Shown here: positions 6,082 to 28,215 of the stretch, piece by piece
How the letters are laid out: the number at the start of each line of letters is the position of its first letter
Position numbering within the stretch: the first letter of the stretch is position 1
IMG/VR virus record: IMGVR_UViG_3300025141_000026
Strand: one strand, 5' to 3'
DNA: 64,000 nt
From: a virus
Position numbers and translations under genes: made by a program
Notes under the pieces: model-generated
What the model was told of the DNA's origin: nothing
Databases searched by the model: none
Seen by the model: only the letters and a program-made list of their open reading frames with translations

Positions 6082-7932
6082 TTAATCAACAAGATTGTGA
6101 CAAATAACCAATCCGTACATATCAGGACGTACCATCTTCTTAGCATAGCGTGTCATGACACCCTTACGCGGCACGAAGTCTTCCGTACCAAAGATGGTAG
6201 GAGTGACTTGGAGCGGCACGTATGGAGCGTACACATATCCACTTTCTAAGAAGCTTCCACCCTTGCGTCCAACAAGGATGACGTTTCTGATAAAGTAAGG
6301 ATCGACATAAATGTCAAACTTCTTACTAATCTGACCAACTTTTACAGCACCTGCGGAACCCTTTGGAGTGTCAGCAGCAACGCTTGCGCGGAAGCCACTA
6401 GTGAACTCAAGAATGTTCGCAACTTCTGGGGAACAAACTAAGAAGTTTGCGCCACCACGGAGTGTCTTTCTATGGATTTGAGCAGAAACATCATTGACTG
6501 TTTCGATCAAAGTTTCATACCATTCAGACACAGTACCTGTGAAGTCAGGTGGAGTAGTAGTGTTATCAATCTTGACACCAGATTCTCTGTTCAAGAATTG
6601 ACCCGGACGACGTGACCAGTGAAGAGTTGCAGCGGATGCACCCTTTACAAGATCATTGAGCAACTCACGGTCGATTTCAAGAGCAATTTGCTCAGAAAGG
6701 ATGCTTGTAAGCTCAACTTCTGCATCAAGGTTGTGGTAAGCTTGGAGATCTTGTCCAAGTTCTGGAGTCCACTTAGCCTTGAGCTTTTTAGTCACGGCAG
6801 TCACACTAACGGAATCAACTTTGATGTCGATCTCTGGAATAAGGTCAACTTGATTTCCGTTGAATTCACCAGCGGCAGCGGCTGCACCTTCAAGACCCCA
6901 CGGGGAAGTACCTGCAAGTGCTCCAAGTGCATCAGTACCAGCAACCTCAAATGCATCTGCGCGAGCAAAGGCAACTTGTGCGGTGGTACCGACATTGTTA
7001 AGTGCAGCAGACAGGTTAGTTGTCATTGCAGAAGTACCAGCGGAAGCCGTTCCTTCAAAAACAAGAATAATTGAAGTATCCGTTGTGTTTCCAAGGTCAA
7101 GAGCATTTACAGACTTACCAGCGCTAGCAGCACTACGACCCTTGAGTGTGGTCAAGCGGCGGACTTGGCGTCCCTGCTCCATGTCGCCACTACCGGTGTA
7201 TACAACAGTGATAAGATCGTTGCGATTGAATGCACCTTTAAGGTTTGCACAGGTTGCACTAAGGACAACAACAGACTTTCCTTGAAGATCTGGATCGTAA
7301 TTTACGAGATCGCTCAAGTAAGTAGTTGCGCCACCAAGTGAAGCCGGTGTCAAAGCGTTTTCAGCATCGTCATCAACACCAGACCCAACAACACCTTGGG
7401 CAATTTCGGCTACAGAAGCCAATGCCACGGTTCCCGTTGGGGATGAGTAACCATTGTTAAGCGCATAAAAGCTGCGTTCCGCAGCGGCTGCTGCTTTGTT
7501 TCCAGCACCGCCAAGGTTTACGCCGCCTGTAAGCTGTGCTCCGACAACTCCACCACCGTAAAGTGATTCATTCCGCCCTTGATCCAAGCGAGCATTGCTC
7601 AATGTGAAATCAAGGAAGAAAATGAGTCCCGATGGGAGACTCATTGGTTGAACTGAAATAAGTTCGTTAGCAACCAAGCTACCGAATACACGGCGAACGA
7701 TTGGAAATGCTACAGCAGCGAAGCCTTGAACGTCTCCGTGTGCCATGGATGAACTCTCACGAAGAAGTTCCTTCGCTTGGTTCTCTAAGAGGCGTGACAT
7801 AGACGCCTTTGTGCTATCGTTATCTAAACCTTCAAGAAGCCCGGTCTTTTCCCACTTATCAAGCAGGGCAGTACCTTCTTTCTGGAGGTCACGATTAACA
7901 ATACCTTCTGTTAATTTATCTAAAACTGACAT
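6082..7932 (-). CDS. Major capsid protein (gp23-like) with central insertion
   Basis: FPIVRRVF, VQPMSLPSGLIFFLDF, KLKAKWTPELGQDLQAYHNLDAEVELT, YAPYVPL, PRKGVMTRYA motifs. Confidence 0.97.
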   Translation of the reverse strand: MSVLDKLTEGIVNRDLQKEGTALLDKWEKTGLLEGLDNDSTKASMSRLLENQAKELLRESSSMAHGDVQGFAAVAFPIVRRVFGSLVANELISVQPMSLPSGLIFFLDFTLSNARLDQGRNESLYGGGVVGAQLTGGVNLGGAGNKAAAAAERSFYALNNGYSSPTGTVALASVAEIAQGVVGSGVDDDAENALTPASLGGATTYLSDLVNYDPDLQGKSVVVLSATCANLKGAFNRNDLITVVYTGSGDMEQGRQVRRLTTLKGRSAASAGKSVNALDLGNTTDTSIILVFEGTASAGTSAMTTNLSAALNNVGTTAQVAFARADAFEVAGTDALGALAGTSPWGLEGAAAAAGEFNGNQVDLIPEIDIKVDSVSVTAVTKKLKAKWTPELGQDLQAYHNLDAEVELTSILSEQIALEIDRELLNDLVKGASAATLHWSRRPGQFLNRESGVKIDNTTTPPDFTGTVSEWYETLIETVNDVSAQIHRKTLRGGANFLVCSPEVANILEFTSGFRASVAADTPKGSAGAVKVGQISKKFDIYVDPYFIRNVILVGRKGGSFLESGYVYAPYVPLQVTPTIFGTEDFVPRKGVMTRYAKKMVRPDMYGLVICHNLVD

Positions 7933-7948: not shown

Positions 7949-8968
7949 TTAGTTAATACCAGCTAAAATTTTCATCCTATCCGAATGTGGATTGGAATCC
8001 TTTTCTATCCTTCTAGGTAATGTTGTTGACCTTCTCTCAACTGCCTCGCTAAGTGATTTTGGCGCAACCTTTTTATTTGGTTGTGCTCCCACCGTGCTTT
8101 GAAGTGCCTCGAAAATTGTCTTTGTCTCTTCCACAGAACCAGACTTCATGATTGCCTCGACAATTTTATTCTTTTGTCGCTCATTCAACGAGTCGTCAAC
8201 CAAGACTTGGTTTGTGTAGAGTAGTTTTGCATTCTGAAGATTTACCTCCGTCAAGGTGTTCTTCATTTGCAAAAGCATTTCTTTGTATTTATCGGCTTTC
8301 TCTTCGAGTCGATAAATTTCTTTCTCAGCGCCCTCTAATACCTTTAGAGCTTCGCTGAGATCTTCATCTTCTTTTTCCTCTTCTTCTAGTTCTTTAACGT
8401 CAAGAGGTTCTTCAACTTTAGTTTGAAGAATATCAATTTCATGCTCAACGCTTGAATCTGGTCTTTGTAGCCAGCCAGCCTTTGTAGGCTCCATATCAAG
8501 TGTGAGTTCTTCTAAGATGTCTACAAGTTCTTCTTCAGTGATTTGAATGTCTTCTTCGAGTTCCTCTTCATCAAGACTCTCTGCTAGTGGAGAGTCTAGT
8601 GCGGGAATTCCCCCCCCCGCCTCACTATCTGTCGCCTGCATTTGTTGTGCCAATTGATCGAAGTCAATTTCAACTTCTTCTTCGTCGTCTGGGCATGGGC
8701 ACAGTTTATCACCTTCTGTGGAAGCAAGTGGCATCTGTTGTGCCAGATCCTCGCTGGACTCCAAGCCTCCGTCCAGACCAAGATCACCTTCATCATCGAG
8801 TAGCTCTTCATCTTCAAGGGGGTCCTCTTCGTCTTGTTCCAAAAGTGCTTCAACAGCGTTTTTAATTTCTGATTGGTACTTTTCAATAACGGATTGTTCC
8901 GCATTTTGTAGCGCAGCTTCTTTGAGTGCTTCTGCATCAACAATTGCTTGTTCTAACATATTAGACAT
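7949..8968 (-). CDS. Prohead core/scaffold protein (gp22-like)
   Basis: Acidic coiled-coil protein immediately upstream of the capsid gene; C-terminal RMKILAGI; many L/I-x-E sites. Confidence 0.8.
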   Translation of the reverse strand: MSNMLEQAIVDAEALKEAALQNAEQSVIEKYQSEIKNAVEALLEQDEEDPLEDEELLDDEGDLGLDGGLESSEDLAQQMPLASTEGDKLCPCPDDEEEVEIDFDQLAQQMQATDSEAGGGIPALDSPLAESLDEEELEEDIQITEEELVDILEELTLDMEPTKAGWLQRPDSSVEHEIDILQTKVEEPLDVKELEEEEKEDEDLSEALKVLEGAEKEIYRLEEKADKYKEMLLQMKNTLTEVNLQNAKLLYTNQVLVDDSLNERQKNKIVEAIMKSGSVEETKTIFEALQSTVGAQPNKKVAPKSLSEAVERRSTTLPRRIEKDSNPHSDRMKILAGIN

Positions 8969-10420: not shown

Positions 10421-10660
10421 TTATCTTCCCCTCTCTAATTGTAATTCTTTTGCCTTTTTATTGGCTACTTCTCTTTCGTGCGCTCTTTTTCGAGCTTGTC
10501 TAATTCTTCTATTTTTATCAGATTTTTTTTCGTGAAACTTGCGTTCCCTAATTTCTTCCATTACTCCGGATTTTTTTACTTTTCTAATAAATCTCTTTAT
10601 CATCCTTTCTGGATGCTCTCCGGGTCTTAAAGTAACTTCTACATTAACTGGTTTAGCCAT
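10421..10660 (-). CDS. rpsU: Ribosomal protein bS21 homolog
   Basis: 79-aa basic protein V.LRPGE..ERMIKRFIRKVKKSGVMEEIRERKFHEKKS..RR matches the bS21 pattern. Confidence 0.88.
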   Translation of the reverse strand: MAKPVNVEVTLRPGEHPERMIKRFIRKVKKSGVMEEIRERKFHEKKSDKNRRIRQARKRAHEREVANKKAKELQLERGR

Positions 10661-11078
10661 TTTTTATTTCTCTCCAAGTGTCGCCAAATATTCCTGCGAG
10701 ATCAGATATATCAACACCGGGGTCGCGTGGATCTACTCCACTTAGTGCCCCTTTTGGGTTTGTTGTTCCAACTTCTCCCGCTGCTGACAGGGGGTTTGTT
10801 CCTTCAAAAACGTTAACCCCGTTCATAGAATCTCTGCCGATTGCATCTAACATTTTTTGTCTCTGCTCTTTTAGGTTTGATAAAGCCTCAGACTCTCTTT
10901 TATTTACAGAGGGCTGTGTAATCTCCTTTTTAGGTTGTTCCACAATTGTCTCTGTAGATGATAACCCCAGAGCAACCTCTGAAATAACTTTGGACAAAAC
11001 GCCATCCTCCAAAAGAGACTCTTGTATGCACTCTTTTACAATGGGTTTTATCAGTCTTTTGAGATCCGATTTTCTCAT
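10653..11078 (-). CDS. Hypothetical head-associated protein
   Basis: N-terminus MRKSDLKRLIKPIVKECIQE resembles the leader on 28813-29723; located in the head module. Confidence 0.6.
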   Translation of the reverse strand: MRKSDLKRLIKPIVKECIQESLLEDGVLSKVISEVALGLSSTETIVEQPKKEITQPSVNKRESEALSNLKEQRQKMLDAIGRDSMNGVNVFEGTNPLSAAGEVGTTNPKGALSGVDPRDPGVDISDLAGIFGDTWREIKNG

Positions 11079-11681
11079 TTAGTCCTCCAAGACATAATTC
11101 AAAGCACGATTGATTCTATCTGCTTTCGTAAATATTTGTTTTTCAACGCCTTCCTGCAATCCCATATAAGCGCCGGGTGTTGATGGTTCAGAAACAAAGT
11201 CAAAACAAATGAGTTGAAAATCTTCTTGAACCGTTACGGTGCCATTTGTACCTTCAGATACAGAACCAAGACCTCTAGAGGAAATGCCTAGAGAGACACC
11301 GGAGTCAACCAAAGATCGAAGAACGTTGCCTGATGGGGTATCTAATACTTTGACCTTACCCATGACAGAGTTTCCATCCCACCACACATCTGTAACAAGG
11401 TGGGAAGCGTTCTTAAGATTGATTACGGAATCATCTGGGTGGTCTAATTCACCCAAAGCCCTTCGTTCTTTGACAAGCTTGTCATAGTTTTGCATCTCGC
11501 GACGTAATACCTTTTGAGGATATACTCTGCCATTTCCATTTTGAACTTCAGCCTCTTGTAACTTACCGGTAAGAATCATTCCCCCATTAGATACAAATTT
11601 CTTTTCTTCTTCCGTGAGGAGATCTTGGCAAACACCACCTTCACAAAGTTCATAATATTCTCTCAAAAGTTTCTTTGACAT
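11079..11681 (-). CDS. Prohead protease (gp21-like, S77)
   Basis: NGNGRVYP, ALGELDHP, NASH, GISSRGLGS, DFVSEPSTPGA motifs. Confidence 0.95.
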   Translation of the reverse strand: MSKKLLREYYELCEGGVCQDLLTEEEKKFVSNGGMILTGKLQEAEVQNGNGRVYPQKVLRREMQNYDKLVKERRALGELDHPDDSVINLKNASHLVTDVWWDGNSVMGKVKVLDTPSGNVLRSLVDSGVSLGISSRGLGSVSEGTNGTVTVQEDFQLICFDFVSEPSTPGAYMGLQEGVEKQIFTKADRINRALNYVLED

Positions 11682-19016: not shown

Positions 19017-19928
19017 TTATACTTCTATTTTATCTAGCTTTTCACTTATAAGTTTTAATTTATTTTCTAAATCGGATATCTTTTTATCTTGTTCTTTTAC
19101 GCCCTCGACCAAAAAAGAAATAATGCGTATGTAATCCATACTATTAGCAAATTCAGAGTCGGCTGACCACTCTACAATTTCTGGTAATACTTTTCCGACC
19201 TCTTCTGCAATGAAGCCATAATCCTTTTTCCCTGTGTCCTTCCAATTATAAGAAACTCCATTGAGTTTGTTGAGAGTTCTGATCGGATTGTCTAAAGGTT
19301 CTATATTTTTTTTGAACCTGATAGAAGAATAGGAGACAAAAGCATTCGCCTTGACTTTTCCAGACACGTCGCTCGTGTCCGGTAGGGTTAGCCCATGAGT
19401 GGCAGATGGTGTGCCGATTGCTAAATGCTTGTCTATGTGGATAACCGCTCCGGACAAAACAAGCCCTCCAGTGGAGGAACCTGATATAACTAAAGAGTTT
19501 GTGTCACTGTAAAATATTCTTGCCTCATTGTTTGGACCAAAATTAAATGAACCTGCGGATCCGGTGCTTGTAAACTGAAGTTCTCCTCCAATTTTGAGGG
19601 GGGACGCACCCTCTAAAGTTCCAGCAATTTGAATTGTAGAACCTGACAGCACAATTCCGTTGCTTGACCCGGAAATCACTAGGAAGTCATCGCCATTTTC
19701 ATTATACTCTATGAAGGCATCATCATTGGTTCCAAAGACCAACTTAGTATCATCGGAGATTTTTAAGTCTGTTTCATCAAAGGTGAAAGATGGGACACCA
19801 CGAGAGGCTCCAGATCGATTGTACTGTATTTGCTCACTATCTCCACCCGCAGCAGTGCTGTCAAAAGCTTGCTCTTTTCTACGAATGTAATTTTGAAGCT
19901 GTCCAAGGGTTCTAAATCTTCTAGCCAT
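19017..19928 (-). CDS. Fibre-like protein with C-terminal intramolecular chaperone (peptidase S74)
   Basis: SSIRFKKNIE..LNKLNGVSYNWK..YGFIAEEV..LPEIV followed by a coiled coil. Confidence 0.85.
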   Translation of the reverse strand: MARRFRTLGQLQNYIRRKEQAFDSTAAGGDSEQIQYNRSGASRGVPSFTFDETDLKISDDTKLVFGTNDDAFIEYNENGDDFLVISGSSNGIVLSGSTIQIAGTLEGASPLKIGGELQFTSTGSAGSFNFGPNNEARIFYSDTNSLVISGSSTGGLVLSGAVIHIDKHLAIGTPSATHGLTLPDTSDVSGKVKANAFVSYSSIRFKKNIEPLDNPIRTLNKLNGVSYNWKDTGKKDYGFIAEEVGKVLPEIVEWSADSEFANSMDYIRIISFLVEGVKEQDKKISDLENKLKLISEKLDKIEV

Positions 19929-20364
19929 CGTTCTTTATCTCCACCGCGATTGCAAACACGGATATAGATATAATTATGCCGCCAAGTACCCCACCAGCCA
20001 ACCACCAGTGAGAATAATCATTGGGCGATTCAAGGGCTAGCTCTTGAAGTCTGCCAATTTCTTCATCTTTTATGGTTATAAGTTGGTCGTATCTTTTTGT
20101 TGCAGACTTCAATTTTATGTCGCTAATCTGTAAATCAAGCTCCAGTTGTGCGGATAGCAGCTTTATTTCTCTGTCTATCTCTAAGCGACATTCTTCTACG
20201 GTGTATTTCTTATCGGTAAGAACTTTAGCTGCTGCCGTTGGGTCCATTAGAACACCGGTAAAAGGTGCAGGATCTCCTTTTTTCAATTCAGTTATAACTC
20301 CCTCTTGTGCCCAAGCAGGGAAAGCAAAGAGTATAACTAAAAATATGGATAGTAGTTGTTTCAT
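19921..20364 (-). CDS. Exported membrane-anchored coiled-coil protein, possibly a spanin component
   Basis: Likely start at 20364 (ATGA overlap). Signal peptide MKQLLSIFLVILFAFPAWA, coiled coil, C-terminal TM helix. Confidence 0.5.
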   Translation of the reverse strand: MKQLLSIFLVILFAFPAWAQEGVITELKKGDPAPFTGVLMDPTAAAKVLTDKKYTVEECRLEIDREIKLLSAQLELDLQISDIKLKSATKRYDQLITIKDEEIGRLQELALESPNDYSHWWLAGGVLGGIIISISVFAIAVEIKNDG

Positions 20365-20870
20365 TTTAGCCTCCACCGCCATTTTCCTTTTCCATCTTCA
20401 TCGTTTCCATCTTCATCGCTGGTGTCTATTTGCACTGCCCGTTTTTCTTTTTCTAGTCTCGCCCAAACGCCTTTGCCGTCTTCTGTCTGTGCTTTGTCGC
20501 TATACAGGCTTCCTTTGCCGAGGACTTCCATAACTTTTTCATACAAATCAGTAGCATAAAAGCCACCACCCTTTACTTTGCGAACATTACCAACAGCATA
20601 ACTTTCTCTAAATGGGGCAACGCCTAGATAAGCAATAGGGATGTCTTCTTTATTCACAACAAAAAAGAGCACATCGCCTTTGGGCAACTCAAAACTTACC
20701 AACTGGTTTCCTTCCCACTCTCCAAGATCTTTTCTCTCACCTTTACTTGGGGCGTGTTCTTTATAAAAGTAATCAAGCGACTTTTGTATTTCTTCCTGAG
20801 AAGTAGCAATAGTATCAAAAGCCTCTACCTCGTCTATGAACCTTTTCCAGTTTTCAAGTAGTTGTTTCAT
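20361..20870 (-). CDS. Leader-bearing protein, possible GNAT-like domain
   Basis: Leader MKQLLENWKRFIDE; GGGFYATDLY...LYSD..QT..G..VW.RL pattern. Confidence 0.55.
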   Translation of the reverse strand: MKQLLENWKRFIDEVEAFDTIATSQEEIQKSLDYFYKEHAPSKGERKDLGEWEGNQLVSFELPKGDVLFFVVNKEDIPIAYLGVAPFRESYAVGNVRKVKGGGFYATDLYEKVMEVLGKGSLYSDKAQTEDGKGVWARLEKEKRAVQIDTSDEDGNDEDGKGKWRWRLK

Positions 20871-21154
20871 TTTAGCATTTCTCTAAACTTAGGATCGTAA
20901 AGCAATCCATCAAGTTGCGATGAGTATCCCTTATCAATAAGAAGATCAATCAAAGAATCAACATCCATTTCGTTTTTTGATGCGACGGAAGCAAAATAAT
21001 CTTTGAGTTGACCAAACAACTCTTCCTCTTCCACTTCTCCGCTATAAAAGCGGTCAACCAACTCATCCGTAATCACACCAAGTTCTTGCGGAGTGTTAGC
21101 ACCAAGTCTAATCTCATTTATGTATTTGTTCCAGTTTTCAAGTATTAGTTTCAT
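20867..21154 (-). CDS. Leader-bearing hypothetical protein
   Basis: Leader MKLILENWNKYINE; ATGA overlaps at both ends. Confidence 0.7.
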   Translation of the reverse strand: MKLILENWNKYINEIRLGANTPQELGVITDELVDRFYSGEVEEEELFGQLKDYFASVASKNEMDVDSLIDLLIDKGYSSQLDGLLYDPKFREMLK

Positions 21155-21783
21155 TTTTTTACTAACTCCTTATTTACGATATCATAGCCTTCCACAACGC
21201 CCACATTCACATAGTCAAAGCCGTCGAGGAGGCATATTTTTTGTGGTCCGAACTTGCCGCCCAACTTATAGTATGTGCTGACCTGCCCTACCACCTCTGT
21301 GAATAGCGCTGGTATTGCTTTTTCTGGAAGGGTTTTTAGATGCGTGTTGTATGCTGCTAACTCTCCCCTTAGATCAAACTCGGTTCCACGAGAACCAATC
21401 GCTTGGATGTGGGACATATAATCGTGGATTGCTCTAAACTTTGCGTTTGTAATCTCATCAAAAATGGCGTGATCTGCGTCAATAGTGGCGACCCTCATAG
21501 TGCCCGTGCTCTTAACATCTTTCCTTAGTTCGTCTGCGCTTTCATATGGATGGTAATCAACGAACTCAACATCTACCTTAGACTGGATTTGATTGAACAT
21601 CTTCTCAACAAAAGGAGTTAATGCTTCGTAGTGGGGGACTGCTCTTTGTTCAAAATCAGGAGCAGCAAGGTAGGCAGTACCCACCAAATCAGCATACTTA
21701 GTCCAACCGTTCTCTCCGGGTTTAAGCATTAGCTTCTCGTTGATTGCGATGAACTTTCGCCATTCTGTTAGTAGTTCTTTCAT
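21151..21783 (-). CDS. Leader-bearing protein with HDxxxH/E motif (possible metal-binding enzyme)
   Basis: Leader MKELLTEWRKFIAINE; NAKFRAIHDYMSH...F..RGE.AAY..H...LFTEVVGQ. Confidence 0.65.
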   Translation of the reverse strand: MKELLTEWRKFIAINEKLMLKPGENGWTKYADLVGTAYLAAPDFEQRAVPHYEALTPFVEKMFNQIQSKVDVEFVDYHPYESADELRKDVKSTGTMRVATIDADHAIFDEITNAKFRAIHDYMSHIQAIGSRGTEFDLRGELAAYNTHLKTLPEKAIPALFTEVVGQVSTYYKLGGKFGPQKICLLDGFDYVNVGVVEGYDIVNKELVKK

Positions 21784-22190
21784 CTATATTCCTCGCTCCA
21801 ATCAAATCTATTTTCACCGCTATAAACATGTCTAAGATAGTTACTGTGGGAGCCACTGTATACATAAGCATCAAAATAGTCTTCGCCATTCAGCCACTTT
21901 TGAAAGATCCTGTGATTGCCGTCATCAATAATTAATTGTTGTTTGTCTGTATTATAAAAAAGAACTGGTAAGCCTTCTGTCATACTAAGTTCTTCCTTTC
22001 TTACATCCCCTATTATGTGCTCGCCTTGGGATTTAAGCATACTGAGTGATTTCATTGGGATATCCTTGACTAAGACCCCTTCTTCTCCCTCTTCTTCGTC
22101 AAACTCTTCTTCACCACGGATGACTTCATCGGGAAGAAAATCTAAATTCTCTTTCAAAAAGTTTCGCCACTCTGTTAGTATCTCTTTCAT
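21780..22190 (-). CDS. Leader-bearing ParB/Srx-like domain protein
   Basis: Leader MKEILTEWRNFLKE; PVLF...IIDDGNHR motif. Confidence 0.65.
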   Translation of the reverse strand: MKEILTEWRNFLKENLDFLPDEVIRGEEEFDEEEGEEGVLVKDIPMKSLSMLKSQGEHIIGDVRKEELSMTEGLPVLFYNTDKQQLIIDDGNHRIFQKWLNGEDYFDAYVYSGSHSNYLRHVYSGENRFDWSEEYR

Positions 22191-22783
22191 TAGTAGTCCT
22201 CTGGGTTTTCATCTGTGATGACAACATTTTTGTTTGTCTTTGCCTCAACCCAATCTCTCACAAAGTCGTCAACATCTTTAATCTCAGACATTCTTGTTTC
22301 AGGAGAAAGCCCCCCTAAATACTTTCTATAATCGCTGTCGATCTCATCCATCACTTTCGGGTCTATTGTGTCTGATAGGTGTGGATCTACATCAAGAAGA
22401 TCCAGAACAATGTTCTCTGGACGGAAAAAGCTTTTTCTATCTTTTGGCTCTTTGCTATCGATCCAATTAAACAACCTTATAAGCAGGGCGTTTCCAGATT
22501 CTTTTGTTTTCTTTGCTGCCTTTTTTGCACCTCTTGACTTTGCGGCGACATTGATCGCGGACACGGCTGGACTAAGTTGGGCGATGCCACTAAGTTGGGC
22601 GACACCTTCAACCCCAACTGCCTTGAACATCTCTTCTTTTGCTTGTTGATCTTCTACAAAATCAGACATGCCCATATAAAGATCACTAAACCGAGCGATT
22701 GTCCAATCTTTTGGATACCTTTCAGCAAAAGATTTTCTTTCTTCCTCTATGAATTTTCTCCATTCTGTTAGTAGTTCTTTCAT
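22190..22783 (-). CDS. Leader-bearing hypothetical protein
   Basis: Leader MKELLTEWRKFIEE. Confidence 0.7.
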   Translation of the reverse strand: MKELLTEWRKFIEEERKSFAERYPKDWTIARFSDLYMGMSDFVEDQQAKEEMFKAVGVEGVAQLSGIAQLSPAVSAINVAAKSRGAKKAAKKTKESGNALLIRLFNWIDSKEPKDRKSFFRPENIVLDLLDVDPHLSDTIDPKVMDEIDSDYRKYLGGLSPETRMSEIKDVDDFVRDWVEAKTNKNVVITDENPEDY

Positions 22784-22794
22784 TTCTTTCTCCT

Positions 22795-23208
22795 CTAAAA
22801 CTTATGCAAGATTGGGGCAAACTGTCTCAATGCTTCTGGTGATCTGCCTACGGTTAGGATCCTCTTTGCCAAGATTTGTCCGGCTTCCTCATCTTGCCCT
22901 TCTTCAACCCACTTCTGAAAAGACTTCTCAATCCACTCACCAAAGGTAGCCATATCATCAGCAAACTGCACAGGGTCATCAACACCCTGAAACGACCGTT
23001 TTAGTTGTCTGGCTTTTGCACTAACGGTTCCCATTTCTCTACTCCAACTGGAGCCTTCGTACCTGTCATAATCTATTTGTGTGCCGCCATCAATCGCATT
23101 CGTGATGGTGTCTGCTGCCTCCAATGTTCCGGCGATATCCTCTTCAGAGAATTCAGCAGAGTATGATTCATTTATAAACTTTCGCCATTCTGTTAGTAGT
23201 TCTTTCAT
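22795..23208 (-). CDS. Leader-bearing hypothetical protein
   Basis: Leader MKELLTEWRKFINE. Confidence 0.7.
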   Translation of the reverse strand: MKELLTEWRKFINESYSAEFSEEDIAGTLEAADTITNAIDGGTQIDYDRYEGSSWSREMGTVSAKARQLKRSFQGVDDPVQFADDMATFGEWIEKSFQKWVEEGQDEEAGQILAKRILTVGRSPEALRQFAPILHKF

Positions 23209-23218
23209 TCTTTATCCT

Positions 23219-23722
23219 CTAAAACTTATCCAGTTGTGCTCCCAAGGCTACAAGCATGTTGCCTGTCTCATCTTCTGCGATCCGTCGCAAAATCTTATGT
23301 GCCTTTGATTGCAGAATATTTTCATAATCTTCTGTATTGTTTATCTCTATCATCTCATCCACATTTCTTTCCAGCCAATCAACAAAGGTTTTTAGTGCCT
23401 TTGCTTTGTCCTCGTCTTCTTCTTGGACTTCGTGGTTCTCAAACCAGATGGAAGTGTAGTCAAGTATTTTACGCATCTCTGGTCTAACATACCTCTCTCC
23501 TTCTCCGGGCGAACGCTTAGTCGGCGCAAAGAACCTGAGATCCTTGGCTTCATCTGGGTATAGAAATGCATACATGGTGAAGACTTTATTGAGTACAGCG
23601 TCCATTAGATTATCCAATGTCGTATCTGGTTTGGCAAAGAAATCTCTGGACGACTGTTCTCTATCATAGACATCCTCGTATTCATTTACAAACTTTCGCC
23701 ACTCTGTTAATAGTTCTTTCAT
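23219..23722 (-). CDS. Leader-bearing hypothetical protein
   Basis: Leader MKELLTEWRKFVNE. Confidence 0.7.
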   Translation of the reverse strand: MKELLTEWRKFVNEYEDVYDREQSSRDFFAKPDTTLDNLMDAVLNKVFTMYAFLYPDEAKDLRFFAPTKRSPGEGERYVRPEMRKILDYTSIWFENHEVQEEDEDKAKALKTFVDWLERNVDEMIEINNTEDYENILQSKAHKILRRIAEDETGNMLVALGAQLDKF

Positions 23723-24114
23723 CCTTTATCCTCCGCCCAGAGTTGTCTCATATGGTCAGGAATTGGGACTGGCTCTCCATCTCCATCAATACGAACAAAA
23801 GTAATCTGTGTTGAGCAAACTGTCTTCTGTGTGCCATTGTAAACACTATGCCTTCTGGCTTCTAGGTTTATCACAACAGACGTGTTGCCCATTTTCTCGA
23901 CTTCGCCATAGATCTTAATAATTTGAGTTGGTCTTGCCGGTGCAGTAAATACAACTTCTGACATGTGAACGGTAACCATTCTTGGTGTACCACATATTTC
24001 TGATGCAAAAGCAACTCCTGCCTCATCTAGCCAAGCTAGCATCTGACCTCCGAAGAGATTACCATGATAGCCTAAGTGCTGAGTCATGACTTTATGTGTC
24101 GATATAAGTTTCAT
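23719..24114 (-). CDS. Acyl-CoA thioesterase (hotdog fold, YciA-like)
   Basis: HGNLFGGQMLAWLDEAG, VT.HM..V.F..P, GNTS, TFVRID..G.P.P motifs. Confidence 0.85.
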   Translation of the reverse strand: MKLISTHKVMTQHLGYHGNLFGGQMLAWLDEAGVAFASEICGTPRMVTVHMSEVVFTAPARPTQIIKIYGEVEKMGNTSVVINLEARRHSVYNGTQKTVCSTQITFVRIDGDGEPVPIPDHMRQLWAEDKG

Positions 24115-24308
24115 TTTGATCCCTTCTTATTGTTTTTGCGTATGTTTTTAATAACCGCTTTGTTATAATCTACATTTTTCGATACTGATTCTACCTTTGC
24201 TTCAAGCGAATCTAATCTGTATATTGTATTATAGTAGAAACCACCCATAAGAGCAACGATGCCCCCTATTGTAATTATGGTTTTGATATCCAAAGTAACC
24301 TCTTTCAT
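24111..24308 (-). CDS. Small membrane protein with coiled coil
   Basis: N-terminal hydrophobic helix followed by heptad pattern. Confidence 0.6.
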   Translation of the reverse strand: MKEVTLDIKTIITIGGIVALMGGFYYNTIYRLDSLEAKVESVSKNVDYNKAVIKNIRKNNKKGSK

Positions 24309-24706
24309 TCGCTTCCTCCCTCAACATGCACAATGCCAAACTTGTCTGATATCAGCTTTGCGAGGTTGCTGGGATCTTCACTGTTCTCAGCCACTAGCTT
24401 TTTGACTTCTTCTCTTTTCTTGTCAGTAAGCTCTTCTTTCTTGCCCTCGTATTCTTTTTCTATTTTCGCAATGATTTCATGGTACTTATCAAGAGCTTCA
24501 TCCCTTAGAGCTATCTCTTCTGCGTGGTTATCATTTAGCGCATCAATTTGTTTCTTATGGCTATCCTCTTTCACCTTCAAAACTTCTTTGACTTTATCGG
24601 CACGTCCCTTAAAAAACACCCATACACCGATGGCATATACAATGCCAACTAATATTTTCCAGTATTTTACAACAAAGTCCTTTGCTTTTTTCAGAAAACT
24701 AATCAT
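24305..24706 (-). CDS. Inner-membrane-anchored coiled-coil protein (i-spanin-like)
   Basis: Single N-terminal TM helix then a charged coiled coil; next to holin-like genes. Confidence 0.5.
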   Translation of the reverse strand: MISFLKKAKDFVVKYWKILVGIVYAIGVWVFFKGRADKVKEVLKVKEDSHKKQIDALNDNHAEEIALRDEALDKYHEIIAKIEKEYEGKKEELTDKKREEVKKLVAENSEDPSNLAKLISDKFGIVHVEGGSE

Positions 24707-25057: not shown

Positions 25058-25066
25058 GTAATTAGT
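25058..25066 (-). promoter_or_regulatory. Putative late promoter motif ACTAATTAC (lysis cassette and leader array)
   Basis: Copy of the recurrent motif. Confidence 0.5.
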
Positions 25067-28000
25067 TACTGAGATACAAAAGCGAATCCATCATTTTTCT
25101 CAATTTCAATAGTGGTATCAGCAATGTCCTTCAGGCTATCGACATGCGAGATCAACAAAACTATCTGATAGTAGTTCTTGACCATATCCACAATACGAAC
25201 AAAACCTTCCATGTTTTCCGCATCAAGGGCTGTTGCTGGTTCGTCAAGAATAAATAGGTTGGATTTAGGCAATGACGACACAGAAAGCAGCGCTAGTCTG
25301 ATTGCCATTGCAGCAATTGTTTTCTCAGCGCCAGATCCCATCTCAATAGGTCGTGGGTCATGCTTGGGGTGCTTGATAAAGATGTCAAGCTTGTTGCCAT
25401 CATTTTCAAAGAAGACCTCAAAGTCAACAACGTTAGCCAACACCTTTGAAATCTCATCATTGATGATTGGCAACCTCTTCTTAATAATATCATACGAGAT
25501 GCCATTAGAGTGCATGCAACGCATAAACAAATCATAAGCAGTATACTTGGTTCTTAGATCCTCCAAGTTTGCCTGTTGCTCAACCAAGTTGTTGAGCCGT
25601 TGTTCCAAAGAGCCATGCTGCTTATAAAGTTCTAAGATTTCGTTTCTGCATTCTTCGTATTCTTGTTTTTCTCTCTCCATTCTTTCTGTAGCCGCTCTTT
25701 TCTCTCCTGAAAGAATTTCCAGATTTTCAATAACTTCTTTGTTCTCTTCATATTCATTGATCTTTGCCTCCAGTTCTTTTATTTCAACTTCTAAATTTGT
25801 TTTTTTGGACTTGCTCTTCTCTATGTCAAGCTCAATACGAGCCATCTCATTTGAGAGATTGTTCTTCTTCTCGACAACCTTGTTGTATTTGGCTAAATGG
25901 CTGTCCACAATATCTGGCTGTAGGGTGCCGATATCCTTTTCTATTTTCTCCTTGTTGTTGTTGAGGAGGGTAATCTTCTTCTTGCTTTCTGGAAGAAGTT
26001 TTTTATGTGTATAAGCGTCTCGTATAAACCTACAATGAGAAAACTCAGAACCACAAGGGACTTCTGATAAGAGTGCGACTTTCTTTTCAATTCCTTCTTG
26101 CTCCCTTTCCTCTATACTTATTTCTGAAATGATATTATCGAGATCTTTTCCCTTGTCATTAATAAGTTCTTTTTTAGTTTCTAGTTCATCAATATCAAAG
26201 TTATCCAAAAACTGAATTATCTTTTGGTAATGGTCTAGCTTTTGTTTGTGCTGATCCTTCTTTTCGGATATGTCAATGTCAGCGATTTGTAGTTCGTTGG
26301 ACTTGATTTCTTTATCCTCCACGACCTTTACAATATTTATGATGCTTGCTGGCATTGACTCAATCTTTTTTGTCAAGGCAGTAATTTCATTGCGTATCTC
26401 TTCAATCTGGACTTTGTATGCGGCACAGGCTTTCTTTTGTTCTTCAGTTCTTCCAGCATTGTCGTTTAACAATAGTTGAGCAGCCTTGATGTCCTCATCA
26501 TAGTCTTTGCCCTCTAGTGTTTTCAGAGCACCTCGAAGATCTGATGCATCATCTTTTGCTAGCTTGAACTTCTTTTCAAAGATATCCAAATCCAAAAACT
26601 TTGCTAAGATTTCTTTACGTTTTGTAGATCCTTCATTGATGTATGAAAGAGATCCCATCTGAGATGACATAGAGGTCATTAGGAAGTCATCCATTGTCCC
26701 CAAGACCTTTTTGATATTTTTGTCGGTCTCATTTCTTGTGGTGCCATTTAGAACATCTATATCTTGTGTAATCAAGTTTTGTTTTGTAAACTCAGTCTTT
26801 GTTTTAGCTTCAAGCGTCTCTTCGCCCTTCAGCTTTTTGAGATACTTCTCTGACTCTCTATGGATGCTGTACGTGTCATCCCCAACAGATATCTCAACAT
26901 CTGCGGAACACATTTGCTTGTTCTGGTTGATTATGTTGAGATTCTTTCTCTCGTTTTTAGATGTGGAATTATACATCCCATAAAGCAGTCCGTCGATGAT
27001 GGAAGACTTACCAGAGAAGTTCTTGCCAAAAACTCCCACGACCCCATTCAACTTGGTGAAATCAATGGAGTTTCCTTCTCCATAATTGAACAGGTTATCC
27101 CAAGAAAACTTTCTTAGATTCCAATTTACGTTCCTTGTGATCTCCTCTTCTTCTTCAGCAACGGCATTGTATTTTCTATTAAGCTCATAAACCTTTTCTA
27201 AGGTCTGATCGTTAGCTTCATAGTCTTTGAGATACTCATCAATGAACTCTTCCTGAACAGCTATGTCACGAAGGTCCTCTTTTTTCAAGGTGTGGGTCAT
27301 ATGGTCAACGCTAGAGTTGCCACTCGCACGATTCAAGAATGTGATTGACTCTGGCTTGAACTTGGATTTAGCAACATCAATAGCCTTTCTCATCACATCG
27401 AGAGGAAGGTTATTGTTTGTAGCCAAACGAAGTCTTGAGCCGTTTGGAAATGATAGAGATCTAGGGATCTTGCCCTTCGGTGTCAAGTCGATTGTAATAA
27501 ACGGCTTAGGATTCAAAAGCACATGGTGCTTGCATGTATAGTTATCCTTGTCCTTTACATCCCATACCAGATATCCCTTGTCGTTCGTTTCTCCAAAGTT
27601 TTGCTGGACTGTTGATCCCGCATAGCGGATCTTACCTTTTGCATCGAGGGTTTGGTTGGTCTTGTGGATATCCCCAAGGAAAGCATAATCAAAATTATTA
27701 AAAATAGAAATGTCATAGTCGCCATAGTCCATTGTCCATCCGATGTCGGTTTGGCAACCGCTGATGGAACCGTGATAGAGAGCAATATTTACTCTATCAT
27801 AATTAGTTGGCTCGACCCAATTATCGGTATCAAACACAGACAAAACATTCAAAGCAAAATTGTCATTTATGACAGTTTCGCCTGACTCTTTAAGTAAATG
27901 TATGCTTGGGTGCGCCAGCGCTTCCACGATTGGGGTGATGGCATCTTGACGACTACTGTTCTTTAGATTGCCATCGTGGTTTCCCAAGATAATATAAGTT

Positions 28001-28215
28001 GGCGCAATGTCACCTAGACTGCGAAAGAAGTCGGTTGCCATCTCCACAAACTCTGGTGAGATCTGGGTCTTGGTGTGGGCAATGTCGCCACAATGGATAA
28101 TACAATCCACCTTTTGTTTTCTCAGCTTTTTGTACATCTGTTTGAATACTTCTTTATATTCAAAGTGATATTTCAGATTGCGGATATGGGTATCCGCTAT
28201 ATGAGCAAATCTCAT
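25066..28215 (-). CDS. Fused Mre11/SbcD nuclease - Rad50/SbcC ATPase (gp47-gp46 fusion)
   Basis: ADTH, GD, GNHD and GDIH metallophosphoesterase motifs; Walker A GKNFSGKS; long coiled coil; SGAEK signature; ILDEP; ISH. Confidence 0.92.
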   Translation of the reverse strand: MRFAHIADTHIRNLKYHFEYKEVFKQMYKKLRKQKVDCIIHCGDIAHTKTQISPEFVEMATDFFRSLGDIAPTYIILGNHDGNLKNSSRQDAITPIVEALAHPSIHLLKESGETVINDNFALNVLSVFDTDNWVEPTNYDRVNIALYHGSISGCQTDIGWTMDYGDYDISIFNNFDYAFLGDIHKTNQTLDAKGKIRYAGSTVQQNFGETNDKGYLVWDVKDKDNYTCKHHVLLNPKPFITIDLTPKGKIPRSLSFPNGSRLRLATNNNLPLDVMRKAIDVAKSKFKPESITFLNRASGNSSVDHMTHTLKKEDLRDIAVQEEFIDEYLKDYEANDQTLEKVYELNRKYNAVAEEEEEITRNVNWNLRKFSWDNLFNYGEGNSIDFTKLNGVVGVFGKNFSGKSSIIDGLLYGMYNSTSKNERKNLNIINQNKQMCSADVEISVGDDTYSIHRESEKYLKKLKGEETLEAKTKTEFTKQNLITQDIDVLNGTTRNETDKNIKKVLGTMDDFLMTSMSSQMGSLSYINEGSTKRKEILAKFLDLDIFEKKFKLAKDDASDLRGALKTLEGKDYDEDIKAAQLLLNDNAGRTEEQKKACAAYKVQIEEIRNEITALTKKIESMPASIINIVKVVEDKEIKSNELQIADIDISEKKDQHKQKLDHYQKIIQFLDNFDIDELETKKELINDKGKDLDNIISEISIEEREQEGIEKKVALLSEVPCGSEFSHCRFIRDAYTHKKLLPESKKKITLLNNNKEKIEKDIGTLQPDIVDSHLAKYNKVVEKKNNLSNEMARIELDIEKSKSKKTNLEVEIKELEAKINEYEENKEVIENLEILSGEKRAATERMEREKQEYEECRNEILELYKQHGSLEQRLNNLVEQQANLEDLRTKYTAYDLFMRCMHSNGISYDIIKKRLPIINDEISKVLANVVDFEVFFENDGNKLDIFIKHPKHDPRPIEMGSGAEKTIAAMAIRLALLSVSSLPKSNLFILDEPATALDAENMEGFVRIVDMVKNYYQIVLLISHVDSLKDIADTTIEIEKNDGFAFVSQ

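What the first reader, a model, noticed from the sequence alone, without database searches (positions are those of the whole stretch)
20361..23722. Tandem array of seven unrelated proteins sharing an N-terminal leader: modular capsid-packaged effector cassette
Seen: consecutive, mostly translationally coupled genes start MKELLTEWRKFVNE, MKELLTEWRKFINE, MKELLTEWRKFIEE, MKEILTEWRNFLKE, MKELLTEWRKFIAINE, MKLILENWNKYINE and MKQLLENWKRFIDE, then diverge completely. Each leader ends in hydrophobic-x-E. Established: T4 internal proteins carry a ~10-aa N-terminal capsid-targeting sequence removed by gp21 after (I/L)-x-E, and IPI* is an injected anti-restriction protein. The capsid protein here has AKELLRE at its likely cleavage site, and a gp21 is present. 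Inference: an interchangeable library of proteins loaded into the head and injected at infection (anti-defence or host takeover), transcribed late from the motif at 25058.
Basis: partly seen in the sequence, partly recalled or inferred. Interest (0 to 1): 0.85.

Follow-up and report, generated by a model that had tools for sequence, protein, structure and literature searches.

The report
Shared head-loading tag on phage proteins
Seven neighbouring genes of an uncultured marine T4-like phage encode unrelated proteins that all begin with the same 14-residue tag, which most likely loads them into the phage head and is then cut off, as in phage T4; the same tag heads more than a thousand other protein families in related uncultured phages.

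Summary
Seven consecutive minus-strand genes (23722 to 20361) start with one 14-residue leader, MK-x-[LI]-L-[TE]-[EN]-W-x-x-[FY]-[LIV]-x-E, and are otherwise unrelated.

The window is a distant T4-like myophage. It has a gp21-type head protease and a gp23-type capsid protein whose Leu-Arg-Glu site aligns with the T4 gp23 cleavage site.

The leader has the layout of the T4 capsid-targeting sequence: two aromatic residues three apart, then Ile/Leu-x-Glu. It is conserved as protein, not as DNA. It is not peculiar to this window:
- a profile finds it in 1146 protein clusters, almost always at residue 1;
- complete 180-203 kb relatives carry 2-10 such genes;
- some lie inside the head and neck gene modules;
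- some proteins carry internal or C-terminal copies.

Cargos include GNAT-like, ART-, kinase-, SAM-lyase- and amidase-type domains. Cargo 5 has the fold of a domain found in large "polyvalent" phage proteins, which are predicted to be packaged in the virion.

Best reading (about 0.6): a head-loading propeptide cut by the head protease, in a fast-changing cassette locus. Packaging, cleavage, injection and late timing are all untested.

It is a new variant of a known kind. The scan has noted analogous tags with other sequences in other large phages.

The parts
23219..23722 (-). Cargo gene 1, 167 aa; leader encoded at 23681-23722. No known family.
   Evidence: It has 35 near-identical to 83%-identical orthologues in metagenomes. 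Copies at 90-95% identity lie in IMG/VR loci L001, L003, L005 and L011.
22795..23208 (-). Cargo gene 2, 137 aa; leader at 23167-23208. No known family.
   Evidence: Relatives lie in L002, L003, L005 and L020. The upstream junction repeat includes the ribosome-binding site and the Lys-Phe-stop end of the preceding gene.
22190..22783 (-). Cargo gene 3, 197 aa; leader at 22742-22783. No known family.
   Evidence: Relatives lie in L001 and L003. In L003 the order is 3-2-1, the reverse of the window.
21780..22190 (-). Cargo gene 4, 136 aa; leader at 22149-22190. A ParB/Srx-like fold is only a weak lead.
   Evidence: ESM Atlas rank 15 is a ParB_N cluster, score 0.93 with 150 shared features, below the 170 that marks same-family hits. 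It is a singleton among the IMG/VR cargos.
21151..21783 (-). Cargo gene 5, 210 aa; leader (16 codons) at 21736-21783. The body is a domain found in large polyvalent phage proteins.
   Evidence: phrog_3170 at 5e-24. tblastn matches Rhodococcus phage E3 gp205 'structural protein' and cluster-C-type mycobacteriophages. The model has pLDDT 87 with the leader as a detached helix. BFVD gives 29 fold matches, among them proteins with MuF/head-morphogenesis, ART-PolyVal and 'large polyvalent protein associated' labels. No PDB match.
20867..21154 (-). Cargo gene 6, 95 aa; leader (E-N-W subtype) at 21113-21154. No known family.
20361..20870 (-). Cargo gene 7, 169 aa; leader (E-N-W subtype) at 20829-20870. 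GNAT-like fold.
   Evidence: The model has pLDDT 84 with the leader detached. Nearly all of the top 50 PDB fold matches are GNAT acetyltransferases (Foldseek E 5e-4 to 1e-2, probability 0.8-1.0). ESM Atlas also gives a GNAT lead. 104 orthologues carry either leader subtype.
11079..11681 (-). Prohead protease, T4 gp21 family: the predicted enzyme that removes the leader.
   Evidence: phrog_207 at 2e-55. 36% identity to T4 gp21, E 1e-31, with the His-Pro and Ser-Ser-Arg-Gly catalytic stretches aligned. Its N-terminus (KKLLREYYEL...) is conserved in 10 relatives and resembles the T-E-W subtype of the leader.
7756..7776 (-). Predicted maturation cleavage site of the major capsid protein (residues 53-59, cut after Glu59).
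   Evidence: BLASTP places Leu57-Arg58-Glu59 opposite T4 gp23 Leu-Thr-Glu65, the known gp21 site. The site is conserved in 10 relatives. T4 gp24 is cut after a near-identical Leu-Leu-Arg-Glu|Ser.
6082..7932 (-). Major capsid protein, gp23 type, 616 aa.
   Evidence: phrog_138 at 2e-69. 31% identity to T4 gp23.
7949..8968 (-). Acidic scaffold-like protein (gp22 position), 339 aa: candidate receptor of the leader.
   Evidence: It lies immediately upstream of the capsid gene, is 27% Asp+Glu, and has 22 hydrophobic-x-Glu sites. Its N- and C-terminal regions are conserved in 10 relatives. The receptor role is inference from T4.
10653..11078 (-). Head-module protein p141, directly after the protease. 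Its N-terminus resembles a second shared leader ('leader B').
24305..24706 (-). Conserved upstream flank of the cassette locus (p133, small membrane or coiled-coil protein).
   Evidence: Homologues flank leader-gene arrays of different content in L081, L089 and others.
19921..20382 (-). Conserved downstream flank (p153, exported or membrane protein). An exact 20-nt repeat is shared with the start of gene 7.
   Evidence: repeat 20351-20370 and 20857-20876.
25059..25065 (-). CTAATTA motif in the only sizeable intergenic gap upstream of the run of genes. A candidate promoter element, unproven.

Best explanation
The 14-residue leader is a capsid-targeting propeptide of the T4 type.

Proposed mechanism:
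1. The genes are made late, together with the head genes.
2. Each cargo docks through the amphipathic leader helix onto the scaffolding core of the assembling prohead. The invariant Trp8 and Phe/Tyr11 are the likely contact residues.
3. The gp21-type prohead protease cuts after the terminal Glu of [LIV]-x-Glu.
4. The free cargo stays in the head with the DNA and enters the cell at infection.

The seven-gene array is one hot spot of a clade-wide cassette system. Any protein that acquires the tag becomes head cargo. The near-identical tag DNA at each gene start also favours recombinational shuffling.

Shown:
- the tag, its layout and its conservation at the protein level;
- its spread over more than 100 (by profile more than 1000) cargo families;
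- the presence of the protease and of a Glu-type capsid cleavage site;
- tag genes inside head and neck modules of relatives;
- turnover of the locus between close relatives.

Inferred: docking, cleavage, packaging, ejection, late timing and what the cargos do.
For: 1. Layout.
- In T4, residues 4 and 7 of the targeting sequence (Tyr, Phe) direct targeting and residues 8 and 10 (Ile, Glu) direct processing. gp21 cuts after L/I-x-E (PMC9026906; T4 N-termini read).
- The leader has Trp8, Phe/Tyr11, Leu/Ile/Val12 and Glu14, the same spacing.
- Position 12 was left free in my DNA search pattern, yet it is L/I/V/M in 180 of 185 leaders.

2. Machinery.
- A gp21 homologue is present.
- The capsid site Leu-Arg-Glu59 aligns to the T4 gp23 site.
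- The protease was found in 10 of 10 leader-bearing genomes tested.

3. Protein-level constraint.
- Synonymous codon entropy in the leader is close to background, for example Leu3 2.20 against 2.42 bits and Arg9 2.07 against 2.22.
- Copies occur inside proteins without the Met-Lys start, and at C-termini.

4. Modularity.
- 198 tagged proteins fall into 111 clusters.
- 1146 cluster representatives match at E<=0.001, nearly all at residue 1.
- In two models the leader is a detached, low-confidence helix.
- Amphipathic moment is 0.62, in the top 1-2% of shuffles.

5. Context.
- Tagged genes lie directly upstream of the prohead protease in L047, L099 and G009.
- They lie between neck genes in 8 loci, and beside the terminase in others.
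- In the window the array runs without gaps into the fibre, terminase and portal genes.

6. Cargo kind.
- Cargo 5 shares its fold with domains of large polyvalent proteins that carry MuF/head-morphogenesis or ART-PolyVal labels. It also matches a phage E3 gene annotated as a structural protein.
- Tagged families elsewhere include ART-PolyVal, GNAT, Zeta-toxin kinase, protein kinase, SAM lyase, Amidase_2 and NUDIX.
- These are the domain types that PMC5512222 predicts to be packaged and injected.

7. The junction.
- The [L/I/M]-x-Glu just before the cargo-5 domain is kept whatever precedes it: leader A, a leader-B-like N-terminus, or another domain plus an internal leader.

8. Turnover.
- In the close relative G013 (protease 96%, capsid 91% identical) the same site holds 3 tagged genes, not 7.
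- Only cargo 5 is shared, at 63% identity and with the other leader subtype.
Against: - There is no direct evidence of packaging, cleavage or ejection.
- No cultured phage carrying the tag was found, so no virion proteome can be consulted.
- The leader profile does not significantly match the capsid propeptide or the protease N-terminus. That resemblance is qualitative and was noticed after the fact.
- Many tagged genes lie far from the head module.
- Some cargos (HAD phosphatases, a P-loop kinase, NUDIX) look like ordinary metabolic enzymes with no obvious reason to be packaged.
- All seven bodies here are acidic, net charge -6 to -16.
- Late timing is not shown.
- In this scan, later checks of analogous 'shared tag means head loading' readings in other phages gave low odds. 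One such tag turned out to be linked to a radical-SAM enzyme instead.
Confidence: 0.6

Rival explanations
1. The leader is a docking tag for another late structure or hub, for example the neck, the portal exterior, a chaperone or an assembly factory. The tagged proteins would then be virion-surface or assembly-associated proteins, not internal cargo that is cut and injected.
For: - One large tagged family (about 810-824 aa) sits between neck and tail-completion genes.
- The scan found a comparable tag in a giant E. coli phage that was read as a virion-docking plug for adhesin-like proteins (e1-158929).
- The invariant Trp has no counterpart in the known protease substrates of this phage.
Against: - Cargos are mostly small enzyme-like or unknown globular proteins, not fibres or adhesins.
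- The strict hydrophobic-x-Glu ending, and its retention at internal junctions, has no role in a pure docking model.
- The layout matches the mapped T4 determinants.
Confidence: 0.12
2. The leader is a recognition tag or degron for a different protease or unfoldase, for example the ClpP-like protease that these phages encode. It would set the lifetime of many phage proteins.
For: - A ClpP-like protease gene lies directly upstream of the gene 3-2-1 array in L003.
- It is conserved in 9 of 10 tag-bearing genomes.
- The tag is terminal, as Clp-type degrons often are (own knowledge).
Against: - In the other genomes the ClpP-like gene is 12-50 kb or more from the arrays.
- Internal copies acting as linkers between domains, and tagged genes inside head modules, do not fit a degron.
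- The ending matches gp21 specificity, not a known Clp signal.
Confidence: 0.07
3. The leader is a generic amphipathic helix for self- or hetero-oligomerisation or regulation of the cargos, with no link to the capsid.
For: High amphipathic moment. The leader is predicted as a free helix.
Against: - This does not explain near-invariance over more than 1000 families.
- It does not explain the Glu ending or the association with structural modules.
Confidence: 0.07
4. The conservation acts mainly at the nucleic-acid level: a translation-initiation region or a recombination site for cassette shuffling, with no role for the peptide.
For: - Within the window, leaders 1-5 are almost identical in DNA, including synonymous sites and the upstream ribosome-binding site. 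45-54 nt direct repeats mark every gene start.
- An exact 20-nt repeat brackets gene 7.
Against: - Across genomes, synonymous sites vary almost as freely as in the gene bodies while the residues stay fixed.
- Leaders 6 and 7 differ in DNA but keep the residue pattern.
- Internal and C-terminal copies lack a start codon context.
- No Rfam match in the region.
- Recombination at the repeats is likely real, but as a by-product.
Confidence: 0.03
5. The leader is the recognition sequence of a modifying enzyme, RiPP-like, as proposed in this scan for a tag in phage RB43.
For: There is a precedent within the scan (e1-127136).
Against: - A radical-SAM gene is present in only 1 of 7 complete tag-bearing genomes, and there it lies about 50 kb from the array.
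- No enzyme gene is conserved next to the arrays. The thioesterase beside the window array has no match in L089, the G013 locus.
Confidence: 0.02

Closest known systems
Capsid targeting sequence (CTS) of phage T4 internal proteins IPI, IPII and IPIII (MKTYQEFIAE in IPII/III), removed by the prohead protease gp21
   Same: - An N-terminal, short, shared tag on unrelated mature proteins.
- Two aromatic residues three apart, followed by Ile/Leu-x-Glu.
- The phage encodes gp21, a gp22-like scaffold and gp23 homologues.
   Different: - 14 residues rather than 10, with an invariant Trp and an extra Leu-rich turn.
- No detectable sequence homology; the tags are too short to test it.
- The tag sits on enzyme-sized cargos up to more than 1000 aa, and on hundreds to thousands of families rather than three.
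- It also occurs internally and at C-termini.
- It has not been tested experimentally.
Polymorphic internal-protein locus of T-even phages (Repoila et al. 1994, cited in PMC3012670; I could not read the paper itself)
   Same: A locus with conserved flanks whose genes differ between related phages and share only the targeting sequence. Here the window has 7 genes and G013 has 3.
   Different: - Larger arrays, and several hot spots per genome.
- Two leader subtypes mixed within one array.
- A different phage clade (uncultured, marine).
T4 Alt, an ADP-ribosyltransferase packaged in the head, processed by gp21 at both ends and injected
   Same: It is an enzyme cargo carrying protease-removed propeptides (PMC5512222). 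Tagged ART-type cargos exist in this clade, and some tagged proteins carry a C-terminal copy of the tag.
   Different: None of the seven cargos here is an ART. The ART hits belong to the polyvalent-protein clade, not the Alt clade.
Polyvalent proteins and MuF-fused effectors of phages (Iyer et al. 2017, PMC5512222)
   Same: The cargo repertoire is of the same kind (ART, GNAT, NUDIX, ParB-like, peptidases). The cargo-5 fold occurs inside such proteins. Delivery from the virion is predicted.
   Different: There the effector domains are fused into one giant polypeptide with a head-anchoring MuF or portal domain. Here each domain is a separate gene with its own short tag, and only occasionally are two joined by an internal tag.
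Propeptide-bearing inner-body and ejection proteins of phiKZ-like giant phages (phiKZ, 201phi2-1, SPN3US)
   Same: Many head proteins are cut after Glu by a gp21-related protease.
   Different: The motif there is Ser/Ala-x-Glu. No common short address tag has been described for them. The capsid lineage and genome type differ.
Shared N-terminal tags noted by this scan in other large phages (for example MNWYK..., MNRYDIALGKKPPP, MKRYI...)
   Same: The same general pattern: one short N-terminal peptide on many unrelated proteins.
   Different: The sequences and the phage clades differ. Here the phage is a clear T4 relative with a Glu-type protease site, so the T4 precedent applies more directly.

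Membership tests
T4-type capsid targeting sequence / gp21-processed head cargo | A short N-terminal extension shared by otherwise unrelated proteins | tested here: met
   In the models the leader is a separate helix outside the fold.
T4-type capsid targeting sequence / gp21-processed head cargo | The tag ends in the gp21 cleavage motif Leu/Ile-x-Glu | tested here: met
   All seven leaders. Position 12 is L/I/V/M in 180 of 185 leaders although the search pattern did not constrain it. The motif definition is from PMC9026906.
T4-type capsid targeting sequence / gp21-processed head cargo | Targeting determinants: aromatic residues 6 and 3 positions before the Glu (T4 residues 4 and 7) | tested here: met
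   Trp8 and Phe/Tyr11 relative to Glu14. In the census these two positions were fixed by my search pattern. In the orthologue alignments A4 and A5, where the pattern played no part, Trp8 is kept in 20 of 24 and 29 of 30 rows (the cargo-7 alignment lists it as nearly invariant) and position 11 is Phe or Tyr in nearly all rows.
T4-type capsid targeting sequence / gp21-processed head cargo | The phage encodes a gp21-family prohead protease with its catalytic residues | tested here: met
   Also found in 10 of 10 tag-bearing relatives.
T4-type capsid targeting sequence / gp21-processed head cargo | The phage's own capsid protein carries a Glu-type maturation site | tested here: met
   Leu-Arg-Glu59 aligns to T4 gp23 Glu65 and is conserved in relatives. 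This rests on alignment only.
T4-type capsid targeting sequence / gp21-processed head cargo | Sequence homology of the tag to the T4 CTS | tested here: inconclusive
   The peptides are too short for statistics. Only the pattern is shared.
T4-type capsid targeting sequence / gp21-processed head cargo | Tagged proteins are found in virions with the tag removed; the tag suffices to load a foreign protein | not testable with these tools
   No cultured tag-bearing phage was found.
T4-type capsid targeting sequence / gp21-processed head cargo | Late expression together with the head genes | tested here: inconclusive
   Operon-like packing into the terminase and portal genes. No validated late promoter.
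Hyperplastic internal-protein locus (T-even type) | Conserved flanking genes with different tagged genes between them in related phages | tested here: met
   (window 7; L089/G013 3; L081 3; L090 none between the same flanks).
RiPP-like tag recognised by a radical-SAM/SPASM enzyme | The enzyme gene is present and linked to the tagged genes | tested here: not met
   Radical_SAM was found in 1 of 7 complete genomes and is not near the array.
Sec/Tat or lipoprotein signal peptide | A hydrophobic core of about 10 or more residues after a basic N-region | tested here: not met
   Read directly from the sequence: the longest uncharged hydrophobic run is 3 residues, and charged residues occur throughout.
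GNAT acetyltransferase fold (cargo 7 only) | GNAT alpha/beta fold | tested here: met
   Foldseek PDB matches are nearly all GNAT, E 5e-4 to 1e-2, TM 0.35-0.47. ESM Atlas also gives a GNAT lead. No Pfam hit. Catalytic competence was not tested.
ParB/Srx-like domain (cargo 4 only) | ParB N-terminal fold and motif | tested here: inconclusive
   Only a rank-15 ESM Atlas hit with a low count of shared features. No Pfam hit.

The most novel reading that the evidence does not exclude
Uncultured marine T4-like phages use one, possibly two, portable address tags: leader A, and a second 'leader B' with consensus MKITKSQLKQIIKEEL. These would load a very large, fast-changing arsenal of enzymes into the capsid for injection. 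That arsenal spans more than a thousand protein families, including ADP-ribosyltransferases, acetyltransferases, kinases, a SAM lyase and wall amidases. Internal copies of the tag would serve as protease-cut linkers in small polyproteins. The tag would then be a sequence key that lists the injected protein set of an environmental phage clade directly from metagenomes.
Probability: 0.4. Interest if true: 0.88.

Novelty: new variant of a known kind. Interest (0 to 1): 0.72.

Why it matters
Injected phage proteins act first in an infection: anti-restriction, host take-over, wall penetration. They are hard to predict because they share no sequence. In T4 the only common feature is the short targeting peptide, and it is known for a handful of proteins.

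If this 14-residue tag works the same way, three things follow:
- It gives a simple rule for reading out hundreds to thousands of candidate head-delivered proteins from marine metagenomes.
- It shows that the T4 loading principle has been scaled up in nature to enzyme-sized cargos and cleavable polyproteins.
- It offers a ready-made natural tag for loading foreign proteins into capsids of this clade.

It also links two ideas that have so far been separate: T4 internal proteins and the 'polyvalent' effector proteins of other phages. The same cargo domains appear in both, either fused to a head anchor or individually tagged.

Tried and rejected
- DNA similarity to cultured phages: none.
- The tag is absent from Flavobacterium phage immuto, Microcystis phage Mel-JY01, RM378, two huge uncultured phages, Pelagibacter phage HTVC008M, P-SSM2 and Syn9. 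It is also absent by short-query tblastn, which has low sensitivity for such short queries.
- No whole genome is held for the window.
- A region-limited word search for the leader returned only orthologues of gene 1.
- Pfam and PHROGs give nothing above threshold for six of the seven cargos.
- Cargo 5 has no PDB fold match. Foldseek's best E is 0.31. VIA-align's best Z is 3.3, with several weak metallohydrolase-like rows that I do not trust.
- My idea that the leader mimics the end of the capsid propeptide (Leu-Leu-Glu-Asn... before the cut) or the protease N-terminus failed a profile test. I keep it only as a qualitative resemblance.
- The T4 late promoter box is not enriched. The CTAATTA count is at chance level. 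No convincing terminators or sigma-70 promoters lie within the array. No Rfam family matches.
- The radical-SAM partner hypothesis is rejected.
- The ClpP-like neighbour in L003 was followed up. It is conserved in the clade but not linked to the arrays.
- Large tagged proteins (824 aa, 1134 aa, 1340 aa) gave no PHROG family.
- Repoila et al. 1994 could not be read. No paper was found that describes this tag. Absence from the held library is not proof that it is unpublished.

Full report
WHAT IS THERE

The window is a stretch of an uncultured marine T4-like myophage, and every gene is on the minus strand. PHROG and Pfam scans identify these genes:
- tail sheath (216-3137);
- a neck/adaptor protein (4689-5963);
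- a gp23-type major capsid protein (6082-7932);
- a gp21-type prohead protease (11079-11681);
- portal (13459-15396);
- large terminase (15403-17007);
- a fibre with an S74 chaperone domain (19017-19928);
- a hotdog thioesterase (23719-24114);
- a fused SbcD/SbcC nuclease (25066-28215).

By capsid protein the nearest cultured phages are only 42-47% identical: Flavobacterium phage immuto, Microcystis phage Mel-JY01 and Rhodothermus phage RM378. There is no DNA-level match to any deposited phage.

Between 23722 and 20361 lie seven consecutive genes of 167, 137, 197, 136, 210, 95 and 169 codons.
- The motif occurs nowhere else in the six frames of the window.
- A profile of the leader scores the seven at 16-21 bits and everything else at -1 or lower.
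- After the leader the proteins are unrelated: best pairwise BLASTP E is 0.026, and they fall into seven separate clusters.
- Most junctions are 4-nt or 1-nt overlaps; two are 10-11 nt gaps.
- Every gene start sits in a 45-54 nt direct repeat covering the ribosome-binding site and the leader.

THE LEADER IS CONSERVED AS A PEPTIDE, AND FAR BEYOND THIS WINDOW

- A strict back-translated pattern found 8 IMG/VR contigs.
- In the fetched loci I counted 210 leader-bearing ORFs. The 198 distinct proteins fall into 111 BLAST clusters and range from 33 to 1134 residues.
- Position 12 was unconstrained in the pattern, yet it is Leu/Ile/Val/Met in 180 of 185 leaders.
- A profile of 99 N-termini was searched against 1.84 billion cluster representatives. 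It found 1146 at E<=0.001, almost all starting at residue 1. Many of these are short fragments, so the number is approximate.
- Across genomes the synonymous sites of the leader vary almost as freely as in the gene bodies.
- The near-identity of leaders 1-5 within the window points to recent duplication or gene conversion.
- Complete 180-203 kb relatives carry 2-10 tagged genes each, always on the coding strand. A reversed-pattern control gave no hits.
- Cultured phages tested lack the tag.

WHY A T4-TYPE HEAD-LOADING TAG IS THE BEST READING

1. Layout. In T4 the first ten residues of IPIII suffice for encapsidation. Residues 4 and 7 govern targeting and residues 8 and 10 govern processing, and gp21 cuts after L/I-x-E (PMC9026906; PMC3012670). 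I read the T4 N-termini from the genome record. IPII and IPIII have Tyr4, Phe7, Ile8 and Glu10. The leader here has Trp8, Phe/Tyr11, Leu/Ile/Val12 and Glu14, the same pattern behind one extra Leu-rich turn.

2. Machinery. The protease is 36% identical to T4 gp21 with the catalytic stretches aligned. BLASTP puts the capsid's Leu57-Arg58-Glu59 opposite T4 gp23 Leu-Thr-Glu65. T4 gp24 is cut after an almost identical Leu-Leu-Arg-Glu|Ser. The site is conserved in ten relatives.

3. Shape. The leader is strongly amphipathic. In confident models of cargos 5 and 7 (pLDDT 87 and 84) it is a detached, low-confidence helix in front of the globular domain.

4. Gene context in relatives.
- A tagged gene lies immediately upstream of the prohead protease in L047, L099 and the complete genome G009. 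This is the position where T4 keeps its core proteins gp67 and gp68. In G009 a 356-residue gene just after the protease carries a degenerate copy of the tag.
- A tagged family of about 820 residues sits between the neck and tail-completion genes in several loci. Others flank the terminase.
- In the window the array continues without gaps into the fibre, terminase and portal genes.

5. Non-terminal copies. Some proteins carry the motif internally, without the Met-Lys start, between two domains. One example has an ART-like domain (a weak, sub-threshold Pfam hit), then the tag, then cargo 5. Others carry it at the extreme C-terminus. This fits a cleavable docking module. The review notes that T4 Alt is processed by gp21 at both termini, and raises the same possibility for gp21 itself.

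6. The junction. In the cargo-5 family the [Leu/Ile/Met]-x-Glu just before the domain is kept in all architectures. One orthologue has exchanged leader A for a different N-terminus of the 'leader B' type.

THE CARGOS

- Cargo 7 has a GNAT-like fold.
- Cargo 5 has no solved relative. Its model matches 29 predicted viral structures at TM 0.6-0.72. Many are domains inside 600-1500-residue proteins labelled head-morphogenesis (MuF), ART-PolyVal, NAT_SF or 'large polyvalent protein associated'.
- By sequence, cargo 5 matches gp205 of Rhodococcus phage E3, annotated as a structural protein.
- Cargo 4 has only a weak ParB_N lead. Cargos 1, 2, 3 and 6 remain unknown.
- Among 101 cluster representatives from relatives, Pfam finds GNAT, ART-PolyVal, Zeta-toxin kinase, protein kinase, SAM lyase, Amidase_2, NUDIX, C39- and C70-type peptidases, RNase T and HAD.
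- This is the repertoire that Iyer and colleagues predict to be packaged and injected as polyvalent or MuF-fused proteins (PMC5512222).
- My reading is that this clade delivers the same kinds of domains as separate, individually tagged genes.

THE LOCUS IS HYPERPLASTIC

- The relative G013 has a protease 96% and a capsid protein 91% identical to the window's.
- Between the same flanking genes it has three tagged genes rather than seven.
- Only cargo 5 is shared, at 63% identity and with the other leader subtype.
- Other relatives hold three, one or no cassettes there.
- L003 carries genes 3-2-1 in the opposite order and in a different neighbourhood.
- The window mixes two subtypes, T-E-W in genes 1-5 and E-N-W in genes 6-7. 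Orthologues of one cargo occur with either subtype.

RIVALS

- A radical-SAM partner, as the scan proposed for a tag in phage RB43, is excluded: only 1 of 7 complete genomes has such a gene, and it is not linked to the array.
- A ClpP-like protease lies next to the array in L003 and is conserved in 9 of 10 genomes, but it is not linked to the arrays elsewhere. I keep a degron reading at low odds.
- A docking role for another virion site, or a generic helix, cannot be excluded. Neither explains the Glu ending.
- My own idea that the tag copies the capsid propeptide end or the protease N-terminus (KKLLREYYEL) failed a profile test. It is only a qualitative resemblance.

LIMITS

- Nothing here shows packaging, cleavage, ejection or timing.
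It recurs upstream of the sheath and scaffold genes, but it is no more frequent than chance. The T4 late box is not enriched.
- No cultured phage with the tag was found.
- Later checks of analogous 'shared tag' readings from other phages in this scan gave modest odds. I have let that temper my confidence.

VERDICT

It is a new variant of a known kind: the T4 capsid-targeting principle with a different, longer tag, used on a far larger and more enzyme-rich cargo set in an uncultured marine clade.

Noticed in passing
window 28990-29373 (-); window 10653-11078 (-); loci L014, L048, L069, L088, L111, L113, L123 and others: A second shared N-terminal leader (consensus MKITKSQLKQIIKEEL, ending Ile-Lys-Glu-Glu) heads 37 small proteins (57-282 aa) in 30 clusters across 20 of the fetched loci. 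These genes often lie in the same hot spots as leader-A genes. In the window it heads the 127-codon gene at 29373. A related N-terminus heads p141, the conserved gene right after the prohead protease. One cargo-5 orthologue (P0273) carries this type in place of leader A.
   Followed up: partly
Flavobacterium phage immuto (MW353176.1), ORF starts at 102836 and 113144; also 25470/111631 and 1803/118588: This cultured relative lacks leader A but has three pairs of unrelated ORFs with shared N-termini. One pair resembles leader B. It could serve as a laboratory model for such tags.
   Followed up: partly
window 20351-20370 and 20857-20876: An exact 20-nt direct repeat brackets cargo gene 7. The downstream copy gives the conserved exported protein (19921-20382) an internal Met-Lys-Gln-Leu-Leu followed by a signal-peptide-like stretch. 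That Met may be its true start, and the repeat looks like a footprint of cassette insertion.
   Followed up: partly
window 25066-28215 (-): The SbcD-like and SbcC-like nuclease subunits (T4 gp47 and gp46 equivalents) are fused into one 1049-residue protein.
   Followed up: no
window 23719-24114 (-): A 4HBT hotdog thioesterase gene is translationally coupled to the first cassette gene. No homologue of it is found in L089, the corresponding locus of the close relative G013, so it may itself be a mobile insert.
   Followed up: partly
L003 8145-8822 (+); G002, G005, G006, G009, G010 and others: A ClpP-like serine protease, additional to the gp21-type prohead protease, is conserved in 9 of 10 tag-bearing genomes. 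In L003 it lies beside a GroEL-like gene and the tagged array.
   Followed up: partly
P0036 (= L059 9857-13258, -) and P0082: Very large tagged proteins (1134 and 1340 aa) are rich in charged, Pro/Gly or Asp/Gln low-complexity sequence. P0036 has three copies of the tag: at the N-terminus, in the middle and at the exact C-terminus.
   Followed up: no
window 43001-52468 and 56275-63984 (-): Two giant ORFs of 3155 and 2569 codons lie in the structural region. I did not examine them.
   Followed up: no
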